64,000 bases of DNA from the human T2T-CHM13v2.0 reference genome, Homo sapiens. The stretch's first letter is position 1. Every line of letters begins with the position of its first letter. Position numbers and translations under genes: made by a program. The notes beneath the pieces were generated by a model. The model was not told the DNA's origin. It made no database searches and saw only the letters and a program-made list of their open reading frames with translations. Shown here piece by piece: positions 1 through 33,240 of the stretch. The stretch is from NCBI RefSeq assembly GCF_009914755.1, contig NC_060941.1. One strand, given 5' to 3'.

Positions 1-390
1 GTAAAGTGGTGAAAGAACAGCTACTCCATAGACAGAGAAGGGCGTTCCCGAAACTAAGAGAAGGAACGTATCCACCCTAGGTACAATGCTTGTATACATG
101 GGGAGAGGTGCTCTGCTACAAGGGTTTGTGATAAAGAATTAACTTTAATTATTACATTTTGCAAGAATCCCTATTACTACCTTTAAAGCAAAATTAGGAA
201 CGCCTTTGTTCTCCAGATATCCAGCTATCTGGACGCTCGGGTCTCTTCAGTAAACATTAATTTGTTCCCTTAACCGTAAGCATCTGAAAGCTAGGAATAT
301 CCTTCTGAGAATGCAGGCCCGTAAGTCCCGGCCTCATTTTTCTAGCCCTCACTCAAAATGGGGTCGCTTCAGGTTCCAACGTCTCTGACA
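1..390 (-). mobile_element. MER41-family ERV1 LTR (cut by the window edge), near-identical to 3855-4240
   Basis: The reverse complement starts TGTCAGAGACGTTGGAACCTGAAGCGACCCCATTTTGAGT, resembling the MER41 5' end. A GAS-type TTCTGAGAA lies at 303-311. Confidence 0.7.
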
Positions 391-884
391 GTCATACTAC
401 ATATGACTCAGCCACGTCAATGGAAAAAGTAGACTGGATAGTGACGTACCCGCAGAAAACGAATACAACAATCTGTCATATAGATCTGACCGCAGTCAGA
501 TTCTGCAGTGAAGTAAAGCCGGTAAACTTGCATGCAACGATCTTCATACCGCATCCAACAAAGCCACGTAAATCCAAAAGCAGTGCGACTCTGGATAGTG
601 AAACACATGCGGGAAACTTGAATGGAAAGATGTTTATACTGCCTCGGATGGAGACACGTAAATGAAAAAACAGTCCCGCTTGGGATAGTAAAGTAGGGGC
701 GCTAAACTTAAATATAACGATCCGAATATCGCATCTGAGTGTGCCAAGTAATAGCAGAGACCAGTCAGAATACGGATACTGATGTGGGTGCGGTAACCTT
801 AAATCCAATGACGGTCACACCGCATTTGATTAAACCAAGTGAAACCTAAAGCAGCCACACTCTCCAAAGTACGCGCTGCTGACT
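391..884. repeat. Cassette 1 tail: degenerate ~90-bp tandem units, CpG-rich
   Basis: Recurrent (G)CAGTC..GATAGTGAA..GC..AAACTT.AAT..CACGTAAAT motifs. Homologous to 4241-4720 and 6588-6950. Confidence 0.75.
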
Positions 885-1069
885 TATACACAAGTGTGCT
901 AACAGGCCCCGAAGATCCGATGCAAACGCGTGGAGGTAACGAAAGAAGCTCCCATTCCACCTTGTCAGCAGACAGCGTTTAGAGATCTCCTTTGCTGATG
1001 TAACGCGAAATAACAGTAACTGATAGAGCAAGTTCCGCACTTAACCTGAGCCTAAACGACCAAGGCGCT
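885..1069 (-). pseudogene. Extremely diverged U2 snRNA-derived sequence (cassette 1 head)
   Basis: Minus-strand TGGAATGGGAGCTTCTTTCGTTACCTCCACGCGT matches U2 TGGAATAGGAGCTTGCTCCGTCCACTCCACGCAT at 26/34. The 5' part AGCGCC..TTAGGCTCAGGTTAAGTG..TATCAGTT is colinear with the U2 5' end. The span is ~185 nt, like U2. Confidence 0.7.
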
Positions 1070-1104
1070 GCCGGCATTAGCGTTCGTCCACGGCCCTCCT
1101 CCTC

Positions 1105-2190
1105 TTAGAGCCAAGTGTATTAATAGGTCCCGACAATCTGAGTGGAGATGACAAGAGGCTCCCATTCTATGAGTGGAGATAACAAGCTGATGACGAAACC
1201 CGGGTGCTCCCCTCATTGGCACCCAGCAGGCAGCACCGGCCCGCTCCCGGAGCCCTCCATCCTGCGCTTTCCCAAACCCCCATCAAAACACCAACCCAGT
1301 CTCCTCCCTCTCAAGCCATTTTCCAACCTGCCTGGGAGCCACTCTGATCTCCCAGAACACCTCATTTTGTGAATTATAAACCTTTTCACACCTTCTCGGT
1401 CCCTGTGTGATGTCACCAGTCTCGATTTCCAAAATAAATTTGGGGTCAGTGGTGGGGCTGGGGTCCATCTAGTTCTGCAGAGTGGGAACAGCACAGAAGC
1501 TACCGGACTTGCTGTGCGCATAGTCCAATTTGGGTGCAAAAGCCTCCCCACTGGACTGGGTGGCCTCTTATCAGTGACAAAACCAAGGGATTTGCTAGTC
1601 CCTCATTTACACACTGGTTACTGAGTGCCTCCCGTTGAGTTGAACACTTTTACTTCCGGGGAAAATTCGTTGTTCCAGACCAAGTTGACTACTGTCTTCA
1701 CTGGACATTCTAAGAGGTGCTTTTGGTCCCAGGGAAATACCCCGGAAGCTGTGAAGTACAACAGCCTTAGGCCCTGTCCCAAATATTCTAATTTAATGGC
1801 TGTACGGTGGGGCTAGGACCTCAGGATGATTCACTCCACCGAGGTATCCGGTCGTCCTGAAGTATAGCCAAGGTTGAGAAGCACCGATAGACACGGAAGA
1901 ATTTTCACTCCCCTTCAGCAAAGACCTTTGTAGGTATGACCTCCTTTGGCTGTCATTGTTCAGAATGGTGGGGGGTCTGGCAAGAGCGAGTCTTAGGGCT
2001 GAGACTAAACCCAATTTATAGGATTTAAGTCCTCTAGATGGGAGGTGGGACAACTGGGACTGCTCACTTGTTCACATGTACATCGGCCTGGTGTATTTCC
2101 ACCAGAAACTGTTCCTCATTATACTGTCTGCCTGGGCCGATCCCTCCTGTCATAAGTTGACACAAGTAAATTGCAAAGTCCTAATCACCT
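1105..2190 (-). mobile_element. Probable ERV internal (env SU-like) remnant replacing the cassette 1 promoter
   Basis: Broken minus-strand frames contain gammaretroviral SU-like pieces (DFAIYLCQLM; NPLVLSL..W..GL). It starts abruptly after the promoter-proximal remnant at 1084-1104. Confidence 0.4.
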
Positions 2191-2194
2191 AATT

Positions 2195-2971
<777 letters not shown>

Positions 2972-3741
2972 TAGCTACAAAGGAGTTTTTTTAGTGTGCA
3001 AAACCAAACAAAACAGCAAGGAGAAAAGTCCCCTGATTTCCACCCTAGTGCTTCTCAATCACACTCAGCATAGCAGCAACAAAACACAACCACATCTATC
3101 GAATCTTATTGCTCACGGCTGTTAAATATCAAATCTCAATCAGCAATTTTAGAGACGGATCCTCCAATGCTTTTGGTTCCCAGTGTTTCACAAGCAAACG
3201 GACAGAAATCGGGAGGGACATAGGAGAAGAATCAGTTAAAATCTCTAAGACCAGTTAAATGAAGTCTCCTGAAAATGACACTGAAACGGAGACAGCAACC
3301 AAGACAAGGAGGACGAGGCAGATTAATACAAAGAGCAGAGCCTGCGGTGTCAAACCTGTTTTTTAGCCGAGAGGGACTTTACTGAGAGGGGCCTCTAACC
3401 CCCTAAATCTTAGAAGGGACTCTAACCCTCCTCGATCCGGCCTCTAACCCGAGGTCGGTCAAGCGTCCTTGCCTTTTATTAAGAGGGGCCTCTAACCCAC
3501 TCTCTTTTAGGAAAGACTCTAACTCCATTAAGTTGGGCCTCTAACCCAATCCCATTCTTTACCCGGGCACTCCACCACTTACCCAAAGTCAGTCTACTGA
3601 CTACTGCAGTGCTGCAGTCTACTTCCTTTGGGTTGGGGGAGTTTCTTCAGTATCGTCCCTTCCATCATTCGCCAGAAATATGTTATAGGACCCCAACACT
3701 TCCCCAAAGCACTATAGTCCCATCTGTGGTGGCCAGAAATA
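2972..3741 (-). mobile_element. ERV1 (MER4/MER41-group) internal leader adjoining the LTR
   Basis: Abuts the 3' end of the LTR, contains CCTCTAACCC reiterations and PBS-like TGGC starts on the minus strand. Confidence 0.5.
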
Positions 3742-4240
3742 CGTCACAGGAAAAGGGCCCCGATCCAGACCCAAAGAGAGGGTTCTTGGGTCTCGCGCAA
3801 GAAATAACTCAGGGCGAGTCCACGGTGCAAAATAAAAGCAAGTTTATTAAGAAAGTAAAGTGGTGAAAGAACAGCTACTCCACAGACAGAGAAGGGCGTT
3901 CCTGAAACTAAGAGAAGGAACGTATCCACCCTAGGTACAATGCTTGTACACATGGGGAGAGGTGCTCTGCTACAAGGGTTTGTGATAATTAACTTTAATT
4001 ATTACATTTTGCAAGAATCCCTATTACTACCTTTAAAGCAAAATTAGGAACGCCTTTGTTCTCCAGATATCCAGCTATCTGGACACTCGGGTCTCTTCAG
4101 TAAACATTAATTTGTTCCCTTAACCGTAAGTATCTGAAAGCTAGGAATATCCTTCTGAGAATGCAGGCCCATAAGTCCCGGCCTCATTTTTCTAGCCCTC
4201 ACTCAAAATGGGGTCGCTTCAGGTTCCAACGTCTCTGACA
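3742..4240 (-). mobile_element. MER41-family LTR, full length
   Basis: The + strand runs from CGTCACAGGAAAAGGGCCCCGATCCAGACCCAAAGAGAGGGTTCTTGG to GTCTCTGACA. GAS-type TTCTGAGAA at 4153-4161. Confidence 0.75.
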
Positions 4241-5134
4241 GTCATACTACATATGACTCAGCCACGTCAATGGAAAAAGTAGACTGGATAGTGACGTACC
4301 CGCAGAAAACGAATGCAACAATCTGTCATACAGATCTGACGGCAGTCAGATTCTGCAGTGAAGTAGAGGCGGTAAACTTGAATGCAACGATCTTCATACC
4401 GCATCCCACAAAGCCACGTAAATCCAAAAGCAGTCCGACTCTCGATAGTGAAACACATGCGGTAAACTTGAATGGAAAGATGTTTATACTGCCTCGGATA
4501 GAGACACGTAAATGAAAAAGCAGTCCCACTTGGGATAGTGAAGTATGGGCGCTCAACTTAAATAGGACCGTCCGCATATCGTATGTGAGTGAAGCAAGTA
4601 ATAGCAAAGGGCAGTCAGATTACGGAGACCGATGGCGACTGAAGTGAGTGCAGTGATCGTCACGCCGCAACCAAGTGAAACCGAAAGCAACTAAGCGCTC
4701 GAAAGCACGCCCGGCCAGCTCAAAAACTACGGCGCTGATGGACCCCAGTGATCCGACGTAAAGGTGCAAACGTAAAGCGCACACGGCCAATTTAAAAGCA
4801 GCGGCGCTTATAGGCCCGGACGAACCGACGTGAACGCGTAGAAGTAAGGTACGCGCGATGAGCTTAAATATGCGAGTACTAAGAGACCGTGAAACCCGGA
4901 TTTAAGCGTGTAAACGCAACACACAACCTAGGAGGTCAGTAACAACGGTCCCAACTGATGCAAACGGCCCAATGCAAACACGTTGAGAATCTCCCGTTAG
5001 CGACAGTAACACACGCTAAGCAACCAATACGAACAAAACTCCCGCTTCGAAAACTGCACCTCGGAATCCTTCCAGCAATCAAGGGCCAGCAACAGCACAA
5101 ACCTTCCACGGTATCAACGCCGCTTTCAAAATGA
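4241..5134 (-). ncRNA. Cassette 2: putative ~0.9-kb snRNA-promoter-driven ncRNA built of ~70-bp and ~90-bp degenerate tandem units
   Basis: Lies directly downstream of a PSE and DSE at canonical spacing. Unit starts: GCAGTC at 4342, 4430, 4520, 4611 and CGGCGCT-like at 4730, 4802, 4873. Transcription is inferred, not shown. Confidence 0.5.
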
Positions 5135-5362
5135 AAACGTTAACGATCGGCCACTGTACTCCTTCTCCCACACATCCTAACCTCAGGGTGACAGATAGCA
5201 CCCTGAATAACTCTCTCTCCTACGTTGAGATTGTGTATCTTTATCCAAATCTGAACACCTGCGTAAGTAATATTGTTACTATTTTGGAGGATATTCACTT
5301 TCCTTTTTTGCTCCCATAACTCCCGAGAGAAGCAGCCATTTTAAATTTGCATGCCCCGCCCC
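5135..5362 (-). promoter_or_regulatory. Pol II snRNA-type promoter: PSE 5171-5192, octamer 5345-5352, GC box 5354-5362
   Basis: The minus strand reads GGGGCGGGGCATGCAAAT (as in the U2 DSE), then AAAATGGCTGC (YY1-like), and ~160 bp later GTCACCCTGAGGTTAGGATGTG. No TATA box. Homologous to 11871-12107. Confidence 0.8.
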
Positions 5363-5504
5363 AGACGCGCCGTGCCCTGCCTGCCAACCACTGAACAGAA
5401 AAGCGCCTGTAAATCACTGGAATCTTGGGAAAGCTCCTTCGGCTTCATTGCCCTTCAGGAGGAAAAACCCACAACGGAAAAGACACGAAGAGCTCTAGGA
5501 GGCT

Positions 5505-5605
5505 CTTCTTTCCTCCTCCTCCCCCTCCCCTTCCCCTCCCCTCTCCCTCCGCCTCCCTTCCCCTCCGCATCCCCTCCCCCTCCCTTCCCCCTCCCCCTCC
5601 CCATC
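5505..5605. repeat. C/T-rich low-complexity tract
   Basis: Runs of CCCCT/CCCT. Confidence 0.9.
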
Positions 5606-5703
5606 TCGTCCTGACCTAGCTGGCATCCAACATTACTTTAAACTTTTTTTCACACATACGTTGAAAGAATTGTTTGGTGAACACCCGTATGCCCATCACC
5701 TAA

Positions 5704-6052
<349 letters not shown>

Positions 6053-6239
6053 CAATTACATATTTTGTATAGCTGCACACATGGAGACAGGTACTCAGGT
6101 CTCGTCCCTCTAGCCATTTCTCAACTGTCTGGTCCGGCAAGGGCAAGTTTTCGAGGAGGCCAGGGTGCAGCCCTCAGGGGAGCACATGCTCTGACTGGTT
6201 GCAGGGCTGGGCGGAACCTTGGGAAAGGGGCCCCTGTAA

Positions 6240-6548
<309 letters not shown>

Positions 6549-6587
6549 TGAGGTACCGCACCCAGCCCCACATTACTATCTTCAAAG

Positions 6588-9035
<2,448 letters not shown>

Positions 9036-9039
9036 TGGC

Positions 9040-10880
9040 CGTTTTCTCTAGTTTCTTTAAATTTCCTCAAAATGGCTATTTTGAATTCTCTGTCTGAAAT
9101 GTCACGTCTCAGTTCCTCTGGAATTGAACAAATGTGGTTTGGTGAGACCATGTTTTCTTGGATGGTCTTGATGTTTGTGGATGTTTGTTTTGTCTGCGTA
9201 TGGAAGAATTAGGTATTTACTGTATTTTTCACAGTCTGGGCTTGTTTCTGTGTGTCTTTCTTGGGAAGGCTTTCTGGGTATTCCAGGATATGTGTGCCCC
9301 AAGTCCAATCATGCTGTGATTCTTACAGACTTGTAGAGGTACTACCCTGGTGGTTATTGGGGGAAATTCAGCCAGCTATCAGGCAAAATTCACCCCTGAT
9401 ATTTTACGTAGTTCTTTTCTATTTTCCCGAAGTGTCGGCCAGTCTGAGAAATAAAGGGACAGAGTACAAAAGAGATAAATTTTAAAGCTGGGTGTCTGGG
9501 GGAGACATCACATGTTGGCAGGTTCCGTGATGCCCCCTGAGCCATAAAACCAGCAAGTTTTTATTAGTGATTTTCAAAAGGGGAGGGAGTGTACGAACAG
9601 GGTGTGGGTCACAGAGATCATGTGCTTCACAAGGTAATAGAATATCACAAGGCAAATGGAGGCAGGGCAAGATCACAGGACCACAGGACTGGGGCAAAAT
9701 TAAAATTGCTAAGGAAGTTTCAGGCACACATTGTCATTGATAACATCTTATCAGGAGACAGGGTTTGAGAGCAGACAACTGGTCTGACCAAAATTTATTC
9801 GGCGGGAATTTCCTCGTCCTAATAAGCCTGGGAGCGCTATGGGAGACTGGGGCTTATTTCATCCCTACAGCTTCGACCATAAAAGATGGCCGCCCCCCGA
9901 AGCAGCCATTTTAGAGGCCTACCCTCAGGGACGCATTCTCTTTCTCAGGGATGTTCCTTGCTGAGAAAAAGAATTCAGCAATATTTTCCCATTTGCTTTT
10001 GAAAGAAGAGAAATATGGCTCTGTTCTGCCCAGCTCACCGGTGGTCAGAGTTTAAGGTTATCTCTCTTGTTCCCTGAACATTGCTGTTATCCTGTTCTTT
10101 TTTCAAGGCGCCCAGAATTCATGTTGTTCAAATACACATGCTCTACAATTTGTGCAATTTACACAATCATCACAGGGTCCTGAGGTGACATACATCCTCC
10201 TCAGCTTACGAAGATGACGGGATTAAGAGATTAAAGTAAAGACAGGCATAGGAAATCACAAGGGTATTGACTGGGGAAGTGATAAGCGTCCATGAAATCT
10301 TCACAATTTATGTTCAGAGATTGCAGTAAAGACAGGCGTAAGAAATTATAAAAGTATTAATTTGGGGAACTAATAAATGTCCATGAAATCTTCACAATTT
10401 ATATTCTTCTGCCATGGCTTCAGCCGGTCCCTCCATTCAGGGTCCCCAGCTTCCCGCAACAGTGGTCTTGGATGAGATCTGAAAGAATCCTCTGGATTAC
10501 CAGGCAGAGACTCTTGTTCTTTTCCCTTACTTTCTCCTAAATAAATGGAGTCTCTCTCTGTGCTGAGATGCCTAAGCAACCCTGTGCTGGTTCAGACCCA
10601 AACCCAGCACAGCACCAGGTCTCACTCAAAGGCCTGCTAGATCCACTACCTGCTACCACCTATGCCCCCTCAAAGCAGTAGAGCTCTAGGATCAGGTGGC
10701 CAAGCCAGCCAGGATTATGTCCCTCCCTTTAGGGCAGTGAGCTCCCTCAAGCCCTGGGTGGGTGCTGGAATGCTGTCTAGGAGCCAAGGTTTGGAGTCAA
10801 GACCTTAGAAATGTAACTGATGTTTTATTCTACTGCAGTTAAGCTCCTAGGGAAACCACAAGAAAAAAGTTCTCCCCACT
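9040..10880 (-). mobile_element. Old L1 5'/ORF1 region interrupted by MER11
   Basis: Minus-strand translation ISDREFKIAILRKFKE is L1 ORF1-like. The sequence resumes after the LTR. Confidence 0.7.
9355..10461 (-). mobile_element. MER11 (HERV-K11) solo LTR
   Basis: The reverse complement begins TGTTGCGGGAAGCTGGGGACCCTGAATGGAGGGACCGGCTGAAGCCATGGC. Flanked by the TSD GTGGT. Confidence 0.85.
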
Positions 10881-11664
10881 CTTGGCTAACTGCAAGATGC
10901 CTCCGATGAGGCCTCCTACCCAAACCTTTCTTATTCGCAGGGACCAGGCTTTCTTACTCGCAGGGACCAGGCTTCAGCTCCCTGACTAAGAAGTCAAATA
11001 AAGGTCGGGCGCGGTGGCTCAGGCCTGTAACCCTAGCATTTTGGGAGGCCAAGGCGGGCTGATCACTTGAGTTCAGGAGACAAACCTGGCCGACATGGTG
11101 AAACTCCCTCTCTCCTAAAAATACAAAAATTAGCCAGCCATGGTAGCGAACGCCTGTAGTCCCAGCTACTCGGGAGGCTGGGGCGGGAGGATCGCTTGAA
11201 TCCGAGAGGCAGAGGTTGCAGTGAGCCGACATGAGGCCACTTCACTCCAGCCTAGGCAACAGAGTGAGACTCGGTATCAAAAAAAACAAAAAAGAAAAAA
11301 TGTGAGCAGTTGGGAAGCAATAATATGAAAAATGAGAGCAAAAGTAACTGCAACATTGGGGAAGACTAAACAACGTCGCTTCTGGCGTTGGCTTATGGAT
11401 GACCACCCCGCTTTCTTCACGTTTTAACTGTCTGGAGTCCAGAAATTAGCAATGCACCTCCTTGGCATATCAGGATGCCAACAAGCACCCTTGTCCCCAG
11501 TTTCAGGACTCGGCGGCGTACTTTCCCAATACGCATTCCCTTATTCTCAATCCGGTTAAAAGCAAAGAAGTAATACCACCCACCAATACTTTCCTTATAC
11601 AACACAAAAACACACACACACATACACAACACCACATAATGAAACCAACGCGAATGTAAGTAAA

Positions 11665-11681
11665 TCTGTTCTTTGTAAAAC
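11665..11681 (-). terminator. snRNA 3' box
   Basis: Minus-strand GTTTTACAAAGAACAGA just past the U2-like 3' end fits GTTT-N-AAARNNAGA. Confidence 0.7.
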
Positions 11682-11685
11682 GTGT

Positions 11686-11870
11686 TTTGACCCTCTTTGG
11701 AAACACGGCAATACCAAGTCGATGCGCAGAGTGGAAAAAACCAGCTCCTATTTCATCTTTCTATTCCAAAACCCCACTTAAATATATCGTCCTCAGACCA
11801 AAAAAAATCAGTTATTCAACTGATAAAAACATGCTACATTGGATCTTAGTCAAAAAGCCAAAAAAGAAAC
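11686..11870 (-). pseudogene. Diverged full-length U2-like snRNA gene or pseudogene
   Basis: Minus strand TTGGCTTTTTGACTAAGATCCAATGTAGCA..TATCAGTTGAATAACTGAT..GAGGACGATATATT..AGATGAAATAGGAGCT..GCATCGACTTGGTATTGC is colinear with U2. The branch-point recognition and Sm sites are altered. Confidence 0.88.
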
Positions 11871-12107
11871 AACACGTTTCTTTCGGCCACAGCACTCCTT
11901 CTCCCACTCATCCTGAGGTCACGGTAAGAAAAATGATCCTCAAGTAAAGAAGCACTCTCTTCCCTAAGTTCACACAGTGTTCCTTGTTACAATTTGTAAC
12001 ATTGCATAAGTAATACTGTTACAAATTTGGGGGGGATATTCGCTTTCTCTTTTTGTTCCCATAGCTCCTGAGCGAAACAGCCATTTTATATTTGCATGCC
12101 CCGCCCC
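11871..12107 (-). promoter_or_regulatory. Pol II snRNA-type promoter: PSE about 11907-11928, octamer 12090-12097, GC box 12099-12107
   Basis: CTTACCGTGACCTCAGGATGAG at about -58 and GGGGCGGGGCATGCAAAT at about -225. Confidence 0.85.
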
Positions 12108-12539
12108 ACAGGCTCCGAGCTCCGTCCTCCCCGCAGGCTGGCCCTATTACCACCATCTAACATCATCTTGCTGGACTTGCTTTATGTATTTATTTAAGAC
12201 GGATTCTCGCACTGTTGCCCGGGCTGGAGTGCAGTGCCGCCATCTCGGCTCCGCTTCCCGGGTTCACGCAATTCTCCTGCCTCAGCCTCCCGAGTAGCTG
12301 GGATTACAGGCGTACACCAGCACATTAGGCTAAATTTTTGTATTTTTAGTAGAGACTGGGTTTCACTATGTTGGCCAGACTGGTCTGGAACTCCTGACCT
12401 CGTGATCCGCCCGCCTTGGCCTCCCAAAGTGCTGGGATTACAGGCGTGAGCCACCGTGCCCGGTCTGGACTTACTTTATTATATGTTATAGACATGTAAT
12501 TACATATTTTGTATAGTTGACCACACAGAAACAGGCACT

Positions 12540-13050
12540 TAGGTCTCCGTCCCTCTAGCCATTTCTCAACCGTCTCGACCGGCGAGTTTTCGTTGAGGCG
12601 AGGGAGCGCTCGCTCCCACAGGTTCGAGGGCTGGGCGGAGCCTTGGGAAACGGGCCCTGGTAATCTCCGCTCAGTGAGTGGCGCTGCGAAGCTGCTTCTG
12701 CCCGGGAAGGAGGAGAGGGGCCTGGAACCGCCGAGGGAACCACCAGTTCCGACGCCCTGGGGTGGGCCCGGAGGACCGAGTGGCTGGGGCGGCACGGGGC
12801 GGGGGGCTGGGCGGGAGGAGCGGGGGTCCAGGAGGTGACCCAGGAGGGGGTAGGATCGGGCTGGGCCTCGTGGGCTCCCTGCCCCCGGAGGGGGCGCGCA
12901 GAGGGAGGGCGGTAGCCCAGTGAGCGCGACCACTACTTCCCTGTGAACGCGAGAGCTCAGACAAGCCACAGGGGGCCAGAGCCGAGAAACCGGAAGACCG
13001 GCGAGGAGACCATAGCACACTCCCAGGAAAGAGAGCGCGAGGGCTTGGGC
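12540..13050. promoter_or_regulatory. CpG island upstream of the U2-like gene
   Basis: High GC and CpG content, GC boxes, and an ETS-like ACTTCC. Confidence 0.65.
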
Positions 13051-30781: not shown

Positions 30782-31002
30782 TCATCACCCCTCCACAGCC
30801 AAGCTGAGATTTAAAGCCCTCCAAGTAAAGTCGAACATGTTCCCTCCTTGGAAATGAATATTCTTGTTTTGGGTCCTAGGATACTCTCCATAAATCATGA
30901 ACCTTATGATACTTAAAGGAGTAAGAAAACCTACCAACTATCCTAAACTACCCGGCGCAGTCTTTTCTTTCTAACCTTGCAAACAGGTTGTATCCCAGGA
31001 GA

Positions 31003-31191
31003 GGGAGCCCCATTCCTGGAGGTACTGCAATACCAGGTCGACGCGTGGAGTGGACAGAGCAAGCTCCTATTTCATCTCCCTGCTCCAAAAATCTATCTAA
31101 TATAATTGTTCTCTGATAGAGGACGTATCAGATATTAAACTGATAAGAACAGATACTACACTTGATCTTAGCCAAAAGGACGAGAAGAGAT
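31003..31191 (-). pseudogene. RNU2-4P: Near-intact U2 snRNA gene copy with genomic flanks
   Basis: About 90% match to U2 by eye, with GTAGTA and the Sm site GATTTTTGG intact. 3' box-like GTTTGCAAGGTTAGA at 30970-30984. The symbol is inferred from remembered position upstream of ARL4D. Confidence 0.9.
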
Positions 31192-32048: not shown

Positions 32049-32085
32049 AAGAGAAATCTTACACCAGTTCTAGTTCCGGGGTTTC

Positions 32086-32118
32086 CGGGCTTTCATTTCG
32101 AATTTGCATGCCCTGCCC
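32086..32118 (-). promoter_or_regulatory. U2 distal sequence element (octamer 32102-32109)
   Basis: Minus-strand GGGCAGGGCATGCAAATTCGAAATGAAAGCCC matches the U2 DSE context, with the GC box mutated. Confidence 0.85.
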
Positions 32119-32119
32119 T

Positions 32120-33240
32120 TTCCCAGGAGGCGTGGCCACCGCGGTTGACTCCACCCCCGGGCCCGCCTCCAGCTAAGGAGCCGCGGCTGGGCTAGGGGCG
32201 ACTTCCTTGTTTGTATGAGCGAAAAGACTGAACCAAAAGAGACAGGGGGTGAAAACAAGATAGGTCTGTGGAAGAGACCTGTAGGCGGAGAGCGGTCCCT
32301 GTTTTCCTGGAGAAAGACGAGTCGCAAGATATCATCACCAGGGGAAACCAGGCTGAGCTGGATCTTTACGTCGTCACCAGTGGGCGGGGAGACCAGCCTT
32401 GTACCCACTGGACAGCGGGCCCATTCCGAGTCAGGGAAGCAGAAGGCCTGGAGGAGCTTCGGGGAGCAGGGGCTGGAGTTCCTCTGCCAGGCAGGAGGCT
32501 GACACCAGACACCGGGCAGAGGGAGGCGGCGCATGGACGGCGAGGGCCCAGCAAGGATTCTCCCCAGCCCCTGTGCCTGCGTCTCCTGCGGCTTCTGTGC
32601 GCGGACCGTGTCCTGTGCTGTGTAGGGAAAGCTGCTTCTCTGCTTGGGACGTGGATTCCTTTACCCTCCTCCTCGCCTGACTACTTCTGACGCGGGTCGT
32701 CAGGACTCCGCTTGGGTGTCACCCGTCCAGGAAGCCTCCCTTAATTAAGGGCCCTCGGCACCCACCCCATATGTGATTAGCAGCCCTCCTGTGTATTTCA
32801 TCGCACCTCGTTGTTTATATCAACTACTCCACTCACCACCCTTCTGGGCAGTCCTTTATCTCCCCCTCTGAAATCCGATCGCTGAGGGCTGGGACCCTCA
32901 TCAGTACTTATCCCCGTTTCTCTGCGCTAGTCTAATTAGTGCCTGGCAAGTTGAAGGCGCTCAGTAAACGTTTGTGGAGCGAAGAAACGACGGATAGGGC
33001 GTAATGAGCACGACACACGCAATCAGAGAGGACGCAGTTAGGAGGCTATTGGCCCGGGGCAGGCGTGAAGGGGGAAGATCGGGCTCGGGGTGGGAGGACA
33101 CCAGAGGGCGGGGTGACTGTCGGGGTGCTCTGGAGGAAGATGGGCGTCAAGGCCCCCAGCAAGGTTGGGATAAATTTTCTCTCTGAGGCACAGACTGCCG
33201 CCTGTAGCGTCAGCATTTACCATTCCCGTCCTCCTTCCTA
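32120..33240. promoter_or_regulatory. CpG island, possibly the promoter of the lncRNA recalled here (LINC00910)
   Basis: CpG/GC-rich segment. The lncRNA assignment is from memory of the locus only. Confidence 0.55.

What the first reader, a model, noticed from the sequence alone, without database searches (positions are those of the whole stretch)
4241..5362. Intact snRNA-type promoter driving a ~0.9-kb repeat-built RNA instead of an snRNA
Seen: a PSE (5171-5192) and an octamer plus GC-box DSE (5345-5362) at U2-like spacing, with no TATA box, predict a minus-strand start near 5134. The promoter and ~1 kb of upstream flank are homologous to those of the U2-like gene at 11870. The downstream body is not recognisably U2: it is G/T-skewed, CpG-rich, built of tandem units, and I see no 3' box before the MER41 LTR. 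Established: PSE plus DSE without TATA recruits SNAPc and Pol II, and 3' end formation uses the 3' box and Integrator. Inference: a U2 paralogue became a longer capped, probably non-polyadenylated ncRNA that U2 homology searches would miss.
Basis: partly seen in the sequence, partly recalled or inferred. Interest (0 to 1): 0.9.

Follow-up and report, generated by a model that had tools for sequence, protein, structure and literature searches.

The report
Orphan U2-type promoter without a U2 gene
A complete-looking promoter of the kind that drives U2 spliceosomal RNA genes sits here without any U2 gene behind it, pointing into an unusually CpG-rich block of short repeats; it probably still opens chromatin and may fire, but nothing suggests a stable new RNA.

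Summary
On the minus strand a GC box plus perfect octamer (5362-5345) and a PSE (5191-5171) sit at the spacing of the RNU2 array (octamer -221, PSE -60), with no TATA box. The 17-nt GC-box/octamer string occurs 11 times in the genome: 9 RNU2 units, the U2-like pseudogene at 11869, and here. The promoter and about 490 alignable bases of upstream flank are 80-85% identical to the U2-like unit. Homology stops about 9 nt past the start site.

The body (5131-4241) is not diverged U2. It has no Rfam match, no U2 similarity above shuffles, no Sm site, no 3' box and no unusual fold. It is locus-specific 72- and 90-bp repeats, the 'stutter' of the published Jana structural variant, ending at a MER41-type LTR.

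The body has the highest CpG observed/expected ratio in 114 kb (1.25). That fits active snRNA genes better than dispersed U2 pseudogenes, but a promoter-less repeat copy is also CpG-rich.

My reading is an orphaned, motif-intact U2-type promoter, probably open and making unstable transcripts. Occupancy and transcription could not be tested. SNAPc/Pol II loci without snRNA genes are already in print; I could not check whether this is one of them.

The parts
5345..5362 (-). Distal sequence element: GC box (Sp1-type) directly followed by a perfect octamer ATGCAAAT (5352-5345)
   Evidence: Read. The 17-mer is found 11 times in the whole genome, all in U2-lineage promoters of this locus. Octamer at -221 as in the RNU2 array.
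5171..5191 (-). Proximal sequence element (TCACC-type)
   Evidence: 10.4 bits on a matrix of 15 real PSEs (leave-one-out range 5.9-20.4). 8 of 127,958 window 21-mers score as high. Its first T lies at -60; the real genes lie at -60 to -62.
5126..5136 (-). Predicted start-site zone (no TATA box upstream)
   Evidence: PSE distance gives 5131-5129. The base aligned to +1 of the U2-like gene is 5136. Nearest purines are 5132 and 5127. Inference; no transcript data.
5128..5375 (-). Promoter block paralogous to the U2-like unit (11861-12120)
   Evidence: 195 of 245 aligned bases identical. Homology ends at 5128, about +9 of U2. BLAST E 3.6e-37.
5512..5602 (.). Purine-rich low-complexity run upstream of the DSE, absent from the paralogue
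   Evidence: TRF. RefSeq 'silencer' 5506-5605 (hub annotation).
5685..5745 (-). Upstream flank segment paralogous to 12142-12201
   Evidence: 48 of 59 identical.
5756..6053 (-). Alu inserted into the upstream flank after the paralogues split
   Evidence: Alu matches. Own target-site duplication, 30 bp from the independent Alu in the paralogue (read).
6061..6239 (-). Far upstream flank paralogous to 12505-12663
   Evidence: 134 of 158 identical.
4711..5127 (-). Proximal body: sequence with no other copy found in the genome, CpG observed/expected 1.35, holding two ~72-bp units (4920-4846, 4847-4774)
   Evidence: No second genomic match. Units 64-66% similar to 866-940 and 6931-7005. CpG. No U2 similarity.
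4241..4710 (-). Distal body: 'stutter' repeat with a 90-bp period, shared with 391-874 and 6589-6939
   Evidence: TRF 4357-4563, 2.3 copies. 87-89% identical to the other copies. Not part of the dispersed LTR family. Called 'stutter' in bioRxiv 10.1101/2025.11.08.687349.
3743..4240 (-). MER41-type 5' LTR in the same orientation, with ATTAAA at 3999 and AATAAA at 3848
   Evidence: Dispersed copies match query positions 89/91-588, with 1274 first-look candidates. PAS scan. Family name taken from the preprint, not from a call of mine.
11681..12120 (-). Paralogous unit: degenerate U2-like gene (11681-11869) with its own DSE and PSE
   Evidence: RF00004 61.1 bits. PSE 10.0 bits. Octamer at -228. 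17-mer DSE at 12090-12106.

Best explanation
This is the orphaned 5' half of an old U2 repeat unit. It keeps the upstream flank, the GC-box/octamer enhancer, the PSE, the start site and at most about 9 nt of U2.

It is a paralogue of the U2-like pseudogene unit 6.7 kb distal. It lost its U2 body at a breakpoint just inside the gene. It now abuts a locus-specific CpG-rich minisatellite (the 'stutter' of the Jana structural variant), followed by a MER41-type LTR.

Shown: the anatomy, the paralogy, the motif quality and spacing, the absence of any snRNA feature in the body, and the lack of CpG depletion.

Inferred: Oct-1/Sp1 on the DSE and SNAPc on the PSE still keep the site open and unmethylated and load Pol II toward the repeats. 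Because the body has no U2 fold, no Sm site and no 3' box, the products would be heterogeneous, short-lived transcripts. They would end within roughly 1-1.5 kb, as Pol II does behind real snRNA genes, or at the LTR poly(A) signal at 3848. They would not be a stable snRNA-like RNA.
For: The U2-specific 17-nt DSE occurs only at 9 RNU2 units, the U2-like unit and here.

The PSE scores within the range of 15 real PSEs and above 7 of them. PSE at -60 and octamer at -221 match the RNU2 array. There is no TATA box.

Paralogy of 80-85% ends about +9.

The body has no Rfam match at E<=10, no U2 similarity (3 comparisons at or below the shuffle mean), no Sm-like site, no 3' box and a fold z of +0.71.

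The 894-bp window with the highest CpG observed/expected in 114 kb is 4251-5144 (1.25; median 0.31; RNU2 array units 0.96-0.98).

Calibration: 15 real snRNA genes have medians of 0.69 (promoter) and 0.74 (+1..+894, range 0.28-0.81). Twenty other U2 hits have 0.155 and 0.245 (range 0.03-0.57). This locus has 0.76 and 1.22.

Pol II is detected up to about 1200 bp past snRNA coding regions (PMC3499247, passage). Un-annotated SNAPc + Pol II loci exist (same paper, section 7).
Against: No occupancy or transcript data could be consulted.

The promoter is no better conserved between the paralogues (79.6%) than the flanks (81-85%). A 21-nt identical run also occurs in the flank. So there is no sign of extra constraint since the split.

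CpG richness is not tied to the promoter alone. The promoter-less stutter copy at 6589-6939 has 0.94, and CpG-depleted sequence (0.30-0.54) lies between it and the promoter.

RefSeq annotates no transcript here (hub table).

The RefSeq 'enhancer' marks at 3829-4734 cover the LTR and the repeats, not the promoter, and could reflect the LTR.

The set of 'real' promoters used for the matrix was chosen from top Rfam hits and recalled gene locations. The PSEs were anchored by a core pattern, which favours a TCACC-type site.
Confidence: 0.55

Rival explanations
1. Silent relic. The promoter motifs have simply not yet decayed, and nothing is loaded there. The CpG-rich body reflects a property of the stutter minisatellite itself, such as its own bound factors, its ACGTG-core motifs, or frequent conversion and recombination. 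The regulatory marks come from the MER41-type LTR.
For: The promoter is not more conserved than the flanks.

The promoter-less stutter Y has CpG observed/expected 0.94, and the recombinant copy at 201-1094 has 0.97.

Stutter parts diverge much faster than adjoining sequence in the same duplicated blocks: 89.1% against 98.4%, and 97.1% against 99.2%.

The RefSeq enhancers overlap the LTR and repeats, not the PSE or DSE (hub table). There is no annotated transcript.
Against: The 17-nt DSE, including its CpG, is intact. The displaced DSE of RNU2-4P has decayed at that CpG.

The CpG maximum starts exactly at the predicted start site and peaks in the promoter-proximal 72-bp units (1.54-1.59).

Promoter CpG of 0.76 sits with real genes, not with dispersed pseudogenes.
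Confidence: 0.3
2. One reading: an active gene for a discrete, stable, capped, non-polyadenylated ncRNA of about 0.9 kb (up to 1.3 kb if it ends at the LTR poly(A) signal) with a function of its own.
For: An intact promoter at canonical spacing. A CpG-island-like body starting at the start site. A precedent of un-annotated SNAPc/Pol II loci (PMC3499247).
Against: No 3' box with patterns that find up to 11 of 15 real ones.

No Sm site. No structure beyond shuffles; 16 of 20 shuffles fold at least as well. No RNA family.

The body is a fast-diverging minisatellite that takes part in structural polymorphism.

Export and identity of Pol II RNAs follow RNA features rather than the promoter type (PMC2241894, abstract). 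So an snRNA-like fate is not expected.
Confidence: 0.15

Closest known systems
Promoter of the RNU2-1 genes in the 6.1-kb RNU2 array (40-90 kb proximal on the same chromosome)
   Same: Identical 17-nt GC-box/octamer DSE. Octamer at -221, TCACC-type PSE at -60, no TATA box.
   Different: Outside the DSE the two promoters barely align; BLAST finds only 25 bp. There is no U2 coding region and no 3' box behind it. It lies on the opposite strand.
LOC124904147, the U2-like pseudogene unit at 11681-12120 of this window
   Same: Same old U2 lineage: promoter and flanks 80-85% identical, same DSE, PSE of equal score.
   Different: That unit still carries a degenerate U2 body (61 bits). Here homology stops about +9 and a repeat array follows.
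'Unknown-1 to 7' loci bound by SNAPc, GTF2B and Pol II (James Faresse et al. 2012, PMC3499247)
   Same: Un-annotated loci with a PSE and other snRNA-promoter elements that are not known snRNA genes (section 7 read).
   Different: Those have ChIP evidence and are said to contain 3'-box similarities. Here occupancy is unknown and no 3' box was found. Their coordinates are in Table S1, which I could not open, so identity with one of them cannot be excluded.
snRNA gene-like Pol III units of Pagano et al. 2007 (PMC1790723)
   Same: PSE/DSE promoters in front of non-snRNA sequence, found by motif search (passages read).
   Different: Those carry a TATA-like box 18-22 bp after the PSE and T-run terminators, so they are Pol III units. 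They were found with H1, U6 and 7SK PSE queries. This locus has no TATA box.
RNU2-4P (31003-31191)
   Same: Another inverted, decayed RNU2 unit in the distal flank. Its PSE is like the array's.
   Different: It keeps the U2 body (178 bits), but its DSE now lies about 0.9 kb upstream behind Alu insertions and has a CpG-to-CpA change. That is the opposite kind of decay.

Membership tests
Pol II snRNA-type (SNAPc-dependent, TATA-less) promoter | PSE about 55-60 bp upstream of the start | tested here: met
   10.4 bits, against a leave-one-out range of 5.9-20.4 for 15 real PSEs. First base at -60 (real genes: -60 to -62). 8 of 127,958 window positions score as high.
Pol II snRNA-type (SNAPc-dependent, TATA-less) promoter | DSE with an octamer about 200-230 bp upstream | tested here: met
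   Perfect octamer at -221 with an adjoining GC box. 10 of 15 real promoters have a perfect octamer between -203 and -229.
Pol II snRNA-type (SNAPc-dependent, TATA-less) promoter | No TATA box 15-20 bp downstream of the PSE (this sets Pol II rather than Pol III) | tested here: met
   -35..-18 holds no A/T-rich element.
Pol II snRNA-type (SNAPc-dependent, TATA-less) promoter | Occupancy by SNAPc, TFIIB and Pol II; PSE-dependent initiation | not testable with these tools
   No ChIP, CAGE or PRO-cap data are reachable. Table S1 of PMC3499247 was closed.
Pol II snRNA gene (whole transcription unit) | 3' box shortly after the RNA end | tested here: not met
   No match between 5131 and 4241 with four patterns that find 5, 6, 6 and 11 of 15 real 3' boxes. 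The only loose matches lie inside the LTR.
Pol II snRNA gene (whole transcription unit) | Structured RNA body with an Sm site | tested here: not met
   No Sm-like site; shuffles give 0.4. Fold z +0.71. No Rfam family at E<=10.
U2 snRNA gene or pseudogene (RF00004) | Match to the U2 covariance model or sequence | tested here: not met
   No hit in 1-11000 at E<=1 or in 4100-5250 at E<=10. Local alignment to three U2 sequences is no better than shuffles, while the control U2-like vs U2 scores 75.5 against a shuffle mean of 9.9.
CpG island (Gardiner-Garden type criteria, recalled) | Over 200 bp, G+C at least 50%, CpG observed/expected at least 0.6 | tested here: met
   The three 200-bp windows spanning 4600-4999 have G+C 0.51-0.55 and observed/expected 1.26-1.59. 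The whole body has G+C 0.49 and 1.22.
Dispersed LTR/ERV sequence (as origin of the body) | Other copies elsewhere in the genome | tested here: not met
   Only local copies on chr17 within 15 kb for 4241-4710, and none for 4711-5146. The LTR family's homology starts at 4240.

The most novel reading that the evidence does not exclude
The promoter has stayed active for tens of millions of years after losing its U2 body. SNAPc-loaded Pol II runs into a G/T-skewed, CpG-rich minisatellite that it keeps unmethylated. This transcription, with possible R-loops or slipped structures, would make the 'stutter' repeats a transcription-dependent breakage and recombination site. That would help explain why the Jana block is structurally polymorphic and marks the distal edge of the BRCA1-RNU2 linkage block, in analogy to the transcription-dependent fragility recalled for the RNU2 array itself.
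Probability: 0.12. Interest if true: 0.7.

Novelty: new member of a known kind. Interest (0 to 1): 0.4.

Why it matters
If the promoter is active, it is a natural experiment. An snRNA-type promoter loads Pol II together with the snRNA 3'-end machinery, but here it is followed by a body with no 3' box and no snRNP signals. That bears on the old question of how promoter type is coupled to 3'-end formation and RNA fate.

It would also add a locus to the very short list (about 70) of SNAPc-bound promoters in the human genome.

The locus lies in the single-copy 'C' block of Jana, the structurally polymorphic element described as the distal boundary of the BRCA1-RNU2 haplotype block. In the passages I read, the paper naming that element does not mention a promoter there.

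If it is silent, it is an ordinary relic of the decaying, inverted RNU2 repeats that fill this flank.

Tried and rejected
1. The body as diverged U2. Local alignments of 5134-4850 to the U2-like gene, RNU2-4P and array U2 score at or below the shuffle mean. Rfam finds nothing. Rejected.

2. The body as part of the RNU2 6.1-kb unit. Sensitive BLAST finds only the 25-bp DSE. Rejected.

3. The body as tRNA-derived or another RNA family. ARAGORN finds 0 genes and Rfam finds 0 matches.

4. A structured RNA. z +0.71 for the sense strand and +2.23 for the antisense strand.

5. Coding potential. Only 6 ORFs of 58-83 aa on either strand. Not pursued.

6. The stutter as the end of the LTR or provirus. 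Dispersed copies start at 4240 and the stutter is local only. Rejected.

7. An ancient tandem of U2 units with the stutter as downstream spacer. The U2-like unit has no stutter-like sequence, and the ~200 nt after the start has no U2 signal. Not supported.

8. Extra constraint on the promoter. It is not better conserved than the flanks.

9. Identifying the 'U2-like' locus of PMC3499247 through its GA motif at -1172. An exact GABP-core search gave 3 sites, none near any of the three U2-type promoters. Led nowhere.

11. A listing of all window positions above the PSE score with nearby octamers. Only the count is used.

12. Literature searches found no paper describing a promoter or transcript at this spot. 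The Jana preprint passages describe the blocks but no U2-type promoter in block C.

Full report
**Where this is.** The window is T2T-CHM13 chr17:44,206,001-44,270,000 (hub note; confirmed). It lies distal to the RNU2 array, whose nine U2 genes sit 40-90 kb proximal on the plus strand. The finding lies on the minus strand.

**The promoter is real and belongs to the U2 lineage.**
- Read on the minus strand, a GC box runs straight into a perfect octamer at 5362-5345.
- A TCACC-type PSE starts at 5191.
- The 17-nt GC-box/octamer string is expected 0.01 times in shuffles of the window. It occurs twice exactly and once with one mismatch.
- In the whole 3.1-Gb assembly it occurs 11 times, with 0 for the reversed control: nine RNU2 array units, the U2-like unit at 12090-12106, and this site.
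- I built a 21-nt PSE matrix from 15 promoters of top-scoring U1, U2, U4, U5, U7, U11, U12 and U4atac loci.
- Four of the 19 rows listed were left out of the matrix: two near-duplicate U1 rows, one uncertain U5 row and RNU2-4P. Fetched loci L049, L051, L054, L055 and L065 were never tabulated.
- Which loci are the working genes rests on Rfam score and recalled chromosomal places.
- The finding's PSE scores 10.4 bits. The 15 real PSEs score 5.9-20.4 when each is left out in turn, and seven of them score lower. Only 8 of 127,958 window positions reach 10.4.
- In all 15 real genes the PSE starts at -60 to -62. That puts the start here at 5131-5129.
- With +1 = 5131 the octamer starts at -221, exactly as in the RNU2 array. 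Ten of the 15 real promoters have a perfect octamer between -203 and -229.
- No A/T-rich element lies at -35..-18. By established rules for snRNA promoters this is a Pol II-type, not a Pol III-type, promoter.

**It is a paralogue of the U2-like unit, cut just inside the gene.**
- The promoter aligns to that of the U2-like pseudogene at 11869 (195 of 245 identical).
- Two upstream flank segments also align (48 of 59 and 134 of 158).
- Different Alu elements, each with its own target duplication, interrupt the two flanks 30 bp apart. The duplication is therefore older than those Alus.
- Identity of 80-85% implies tens of millions of years (inference; rates recalled).
- Homology ends at 5128, about 9 nt past the equivalent of U2 +1.
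- With the true array promoter only the 25-bp DSE aligns (alignment).
- The promoter is not better conserved than the flanks, and the flank also has a 21-nt identical run. So there is no sign of extra constraint since the two paralogues split.
- Perfect retention of the DSE against an otherwise unalignable array promoter argues for constraint earlier in the lineage.

**The body is not U2.**
- Rfam finds U2 at 31000-31191 (178 bits) and 11682-11869 (61 bits). It finds nothing in the finding at E<=1 or E<=10.
- Local alignments of the first 285 nt to three U2 sequences score 8.5-10, against shuffle means of 9.9-10.5. The control (U2-like against U2) scores 75.5.
- There is no tRNA and no Sm-like site.
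- The fold is no better than shuffles: z +0.71, and 16 of 20 shuffles fold at least as well.
- There are no ORFs over 83 aa.
- No 3' box lies between 5131 and 4241, using four patterns that recover 5, 6, 6 and 11 of 15 real 3' boxes. The only loose matches lie inside the LTR.
- The first poly(A) signals on this strand are ATTAAA at 3999 and AATAAA at 3848, both in the LTR.

**What the body is.**
- 4241-4710 has a 90-bp period (TRF; autocorrelation 0.495 against a mean of 0.26).
- It has copies at 391-874 and 6589-6939, and a weak relative about 8 kb proximal.
- 4711-5146 has no other match in the genome.
- That stretch does contain two adjacent ~72-bp units. They resemble the sequence just beyond the other copies at 64-66% identity (E 4e-4 and 0.14).
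- The first ~200 nt show no significant periodicity.
- The LTR family begins at 4240, so the repeats are not part of it.
- A preprint (bioRxiv 10.1101/2025.11.08.687349; passages read) describes this 10.1-kb region as 'Jana'. It is a structural variant of blocks A, B and C: ACBAB in CHM13 and ACB in GRCh38.
- The preprint describes 260-nt 'stutters', Alu pairs, and a PRIMA41/MER41C element in block B.
- My block map agrees: 524-2970 equals 6589-9034 at 98.9%, and 1-784 equals 3855-4634 at 94.6%.
- The promoter lies in the single-copy C block, which is present in both variants.
- The passages I saw do not mention a U2-type promoter there.

**CpG retention.**
- The body has CpG observed/expected 1.22, peaking at 1.54-1.59 in 4700-4999.
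- Among 2263 windows of 894 bp across 114 kb, the maximum (1.25) is 4251-5144, starting at the predicted start site. The median is 0.31 and the RNU2 array units reach 0.96-0.98.
- As a calibration, 15 real snRNA genes have medians of 0.69 (promoter) and 0.74 (+1..+894, range 0.28-0.81). Twenty other U2 hits, mostly dispersed pseudogenes, have 0.155 and 0.245 (range 0.03-0.57).
- The finding (0.76 and 1.22) sits with, or above, the active class.
- This is the signature expected of long-term germ-line hypomethylation (established for CpG islands; here an inference).
- Against a simple link to the promoter: the promoter-less stutter at 6589-6939 has 0.94, and CpG-depleted sequence (0.30-0.54) lies between it and the promoter.
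- The copy at 391-874 is not independent. It is a recombinant of the other two.
- Differences at CpG sites between stutter copies are mostly not TG/CA changes (3 of 15). In the adjoining LTR, 3 of 3 are.

**Most likely working.** Shown are the anatomy and the motif set. I infer that Oct-1/Sp1 and SNAPc still bind and that Pol II starts near 5131 and runs toward the repeats. Pol II is seen up to about 1200 bp behind snRNA coding regions (PMC3499247, passage), so transcripts should fade before or in the LTR. RNA features rather than promoter type decide the fate of Pol II transcripts (PMC2241894, abstract). With no Sm site or 3' box, the products should be heterogeneous and unstable rather than snRNA-like. 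I give this 0.55, a silent relic 0.30, and a stable discrete ncRNA 0.15.

**Known context and novelty.**
- James Faresse et al. 2012 report about 70 SNAPc-bound promoters. They include seven un-annotated Pol II loci and a 'U2-like' locus. Their coordinates are in a supplement I could not open, so this locus may already be among them.
- Pagano et al. 2007 describe PSE/DSE units of the Pol III type.
- Six full-text searches found nothing on a promoter or transcript at this spot.
- I therefore file it as a new member of a known kind, of moderate interest.

Noticed in passing
window 32102-32118 (-): A one-mismatch copy of the U2 17-nt DSE (the CpG reads CpA) lies about 0.9 kb upstream of RNU2-4P, inside the span of LINC00910 exon 1 (32063-32672). 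In the promoter alignment an Alu replaces the DSE position of RNU2-4P. So the pseudogene's enhancer seems to have been pushed away by Alu insertions and now sits in the lncRNA's first exon.
   Followed up: partly
window 391-874 versus 4241-4710 and 6589-6939: The proximal repeat copy is a clean recombinant. At sites where the other two differ, it follows the promoter-adjacent copy up to about 533 and the distal copy from 593 on. This fits the published idea that the long Jana variant arose by crossover within the 90-bp repeats.
   Followed up: partly
window 1-874 / 3855-4710 and 524-2970 / 6589-9034: Within the same duplicated blocks the repeat part diverges far more than its neighbours: 89.1% against 98.4% in block B, and 97.1% against 99.2% in block A. 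Part of the block-B gap reflects the recombinant origin of the proximal copy. For the block-A gap, faster mutation or conversion is a possibility.
   Followed up: partly
window 11681-12120 (-): The RefSeq 'snRNA' LOC124904147 is a badly degenerate U2 (61 bits against 193-197 for array genes; 68% identity). It keeps the exact DSE, a PSE of 10.0 bits, and CpG observed/expected of 0.61 and 0.77. It may be a second decayed unit with a live promoter.
   Followed up: partly
window 4267-4269, 4419-4421, 4509-4511 (-): ACGTG-core motifs recur at a 90-bp spacing in two successive repeat units (TTACGTG at 4511 and 4421), and TGACGTGG lies at 4269. They could be bZIP or bHLH sites and might explain CpG retention or the RefSeq enhancer marks.
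   Followed up: no
window 5512-5602: A purine-rich (GGGGA-like) low-complexity run sits between the DSE and the older flank. It is absent from the paralogue and coincides with a RefSeq 'silencer' (5506-5605).
   Followed up: no
window 5756-6053 and 12194-12464 (-): Two independent Alu insertions, each with its own target duplication, hit the paralogous upstream flanks only about 30 bp apart.
   Followed up: no
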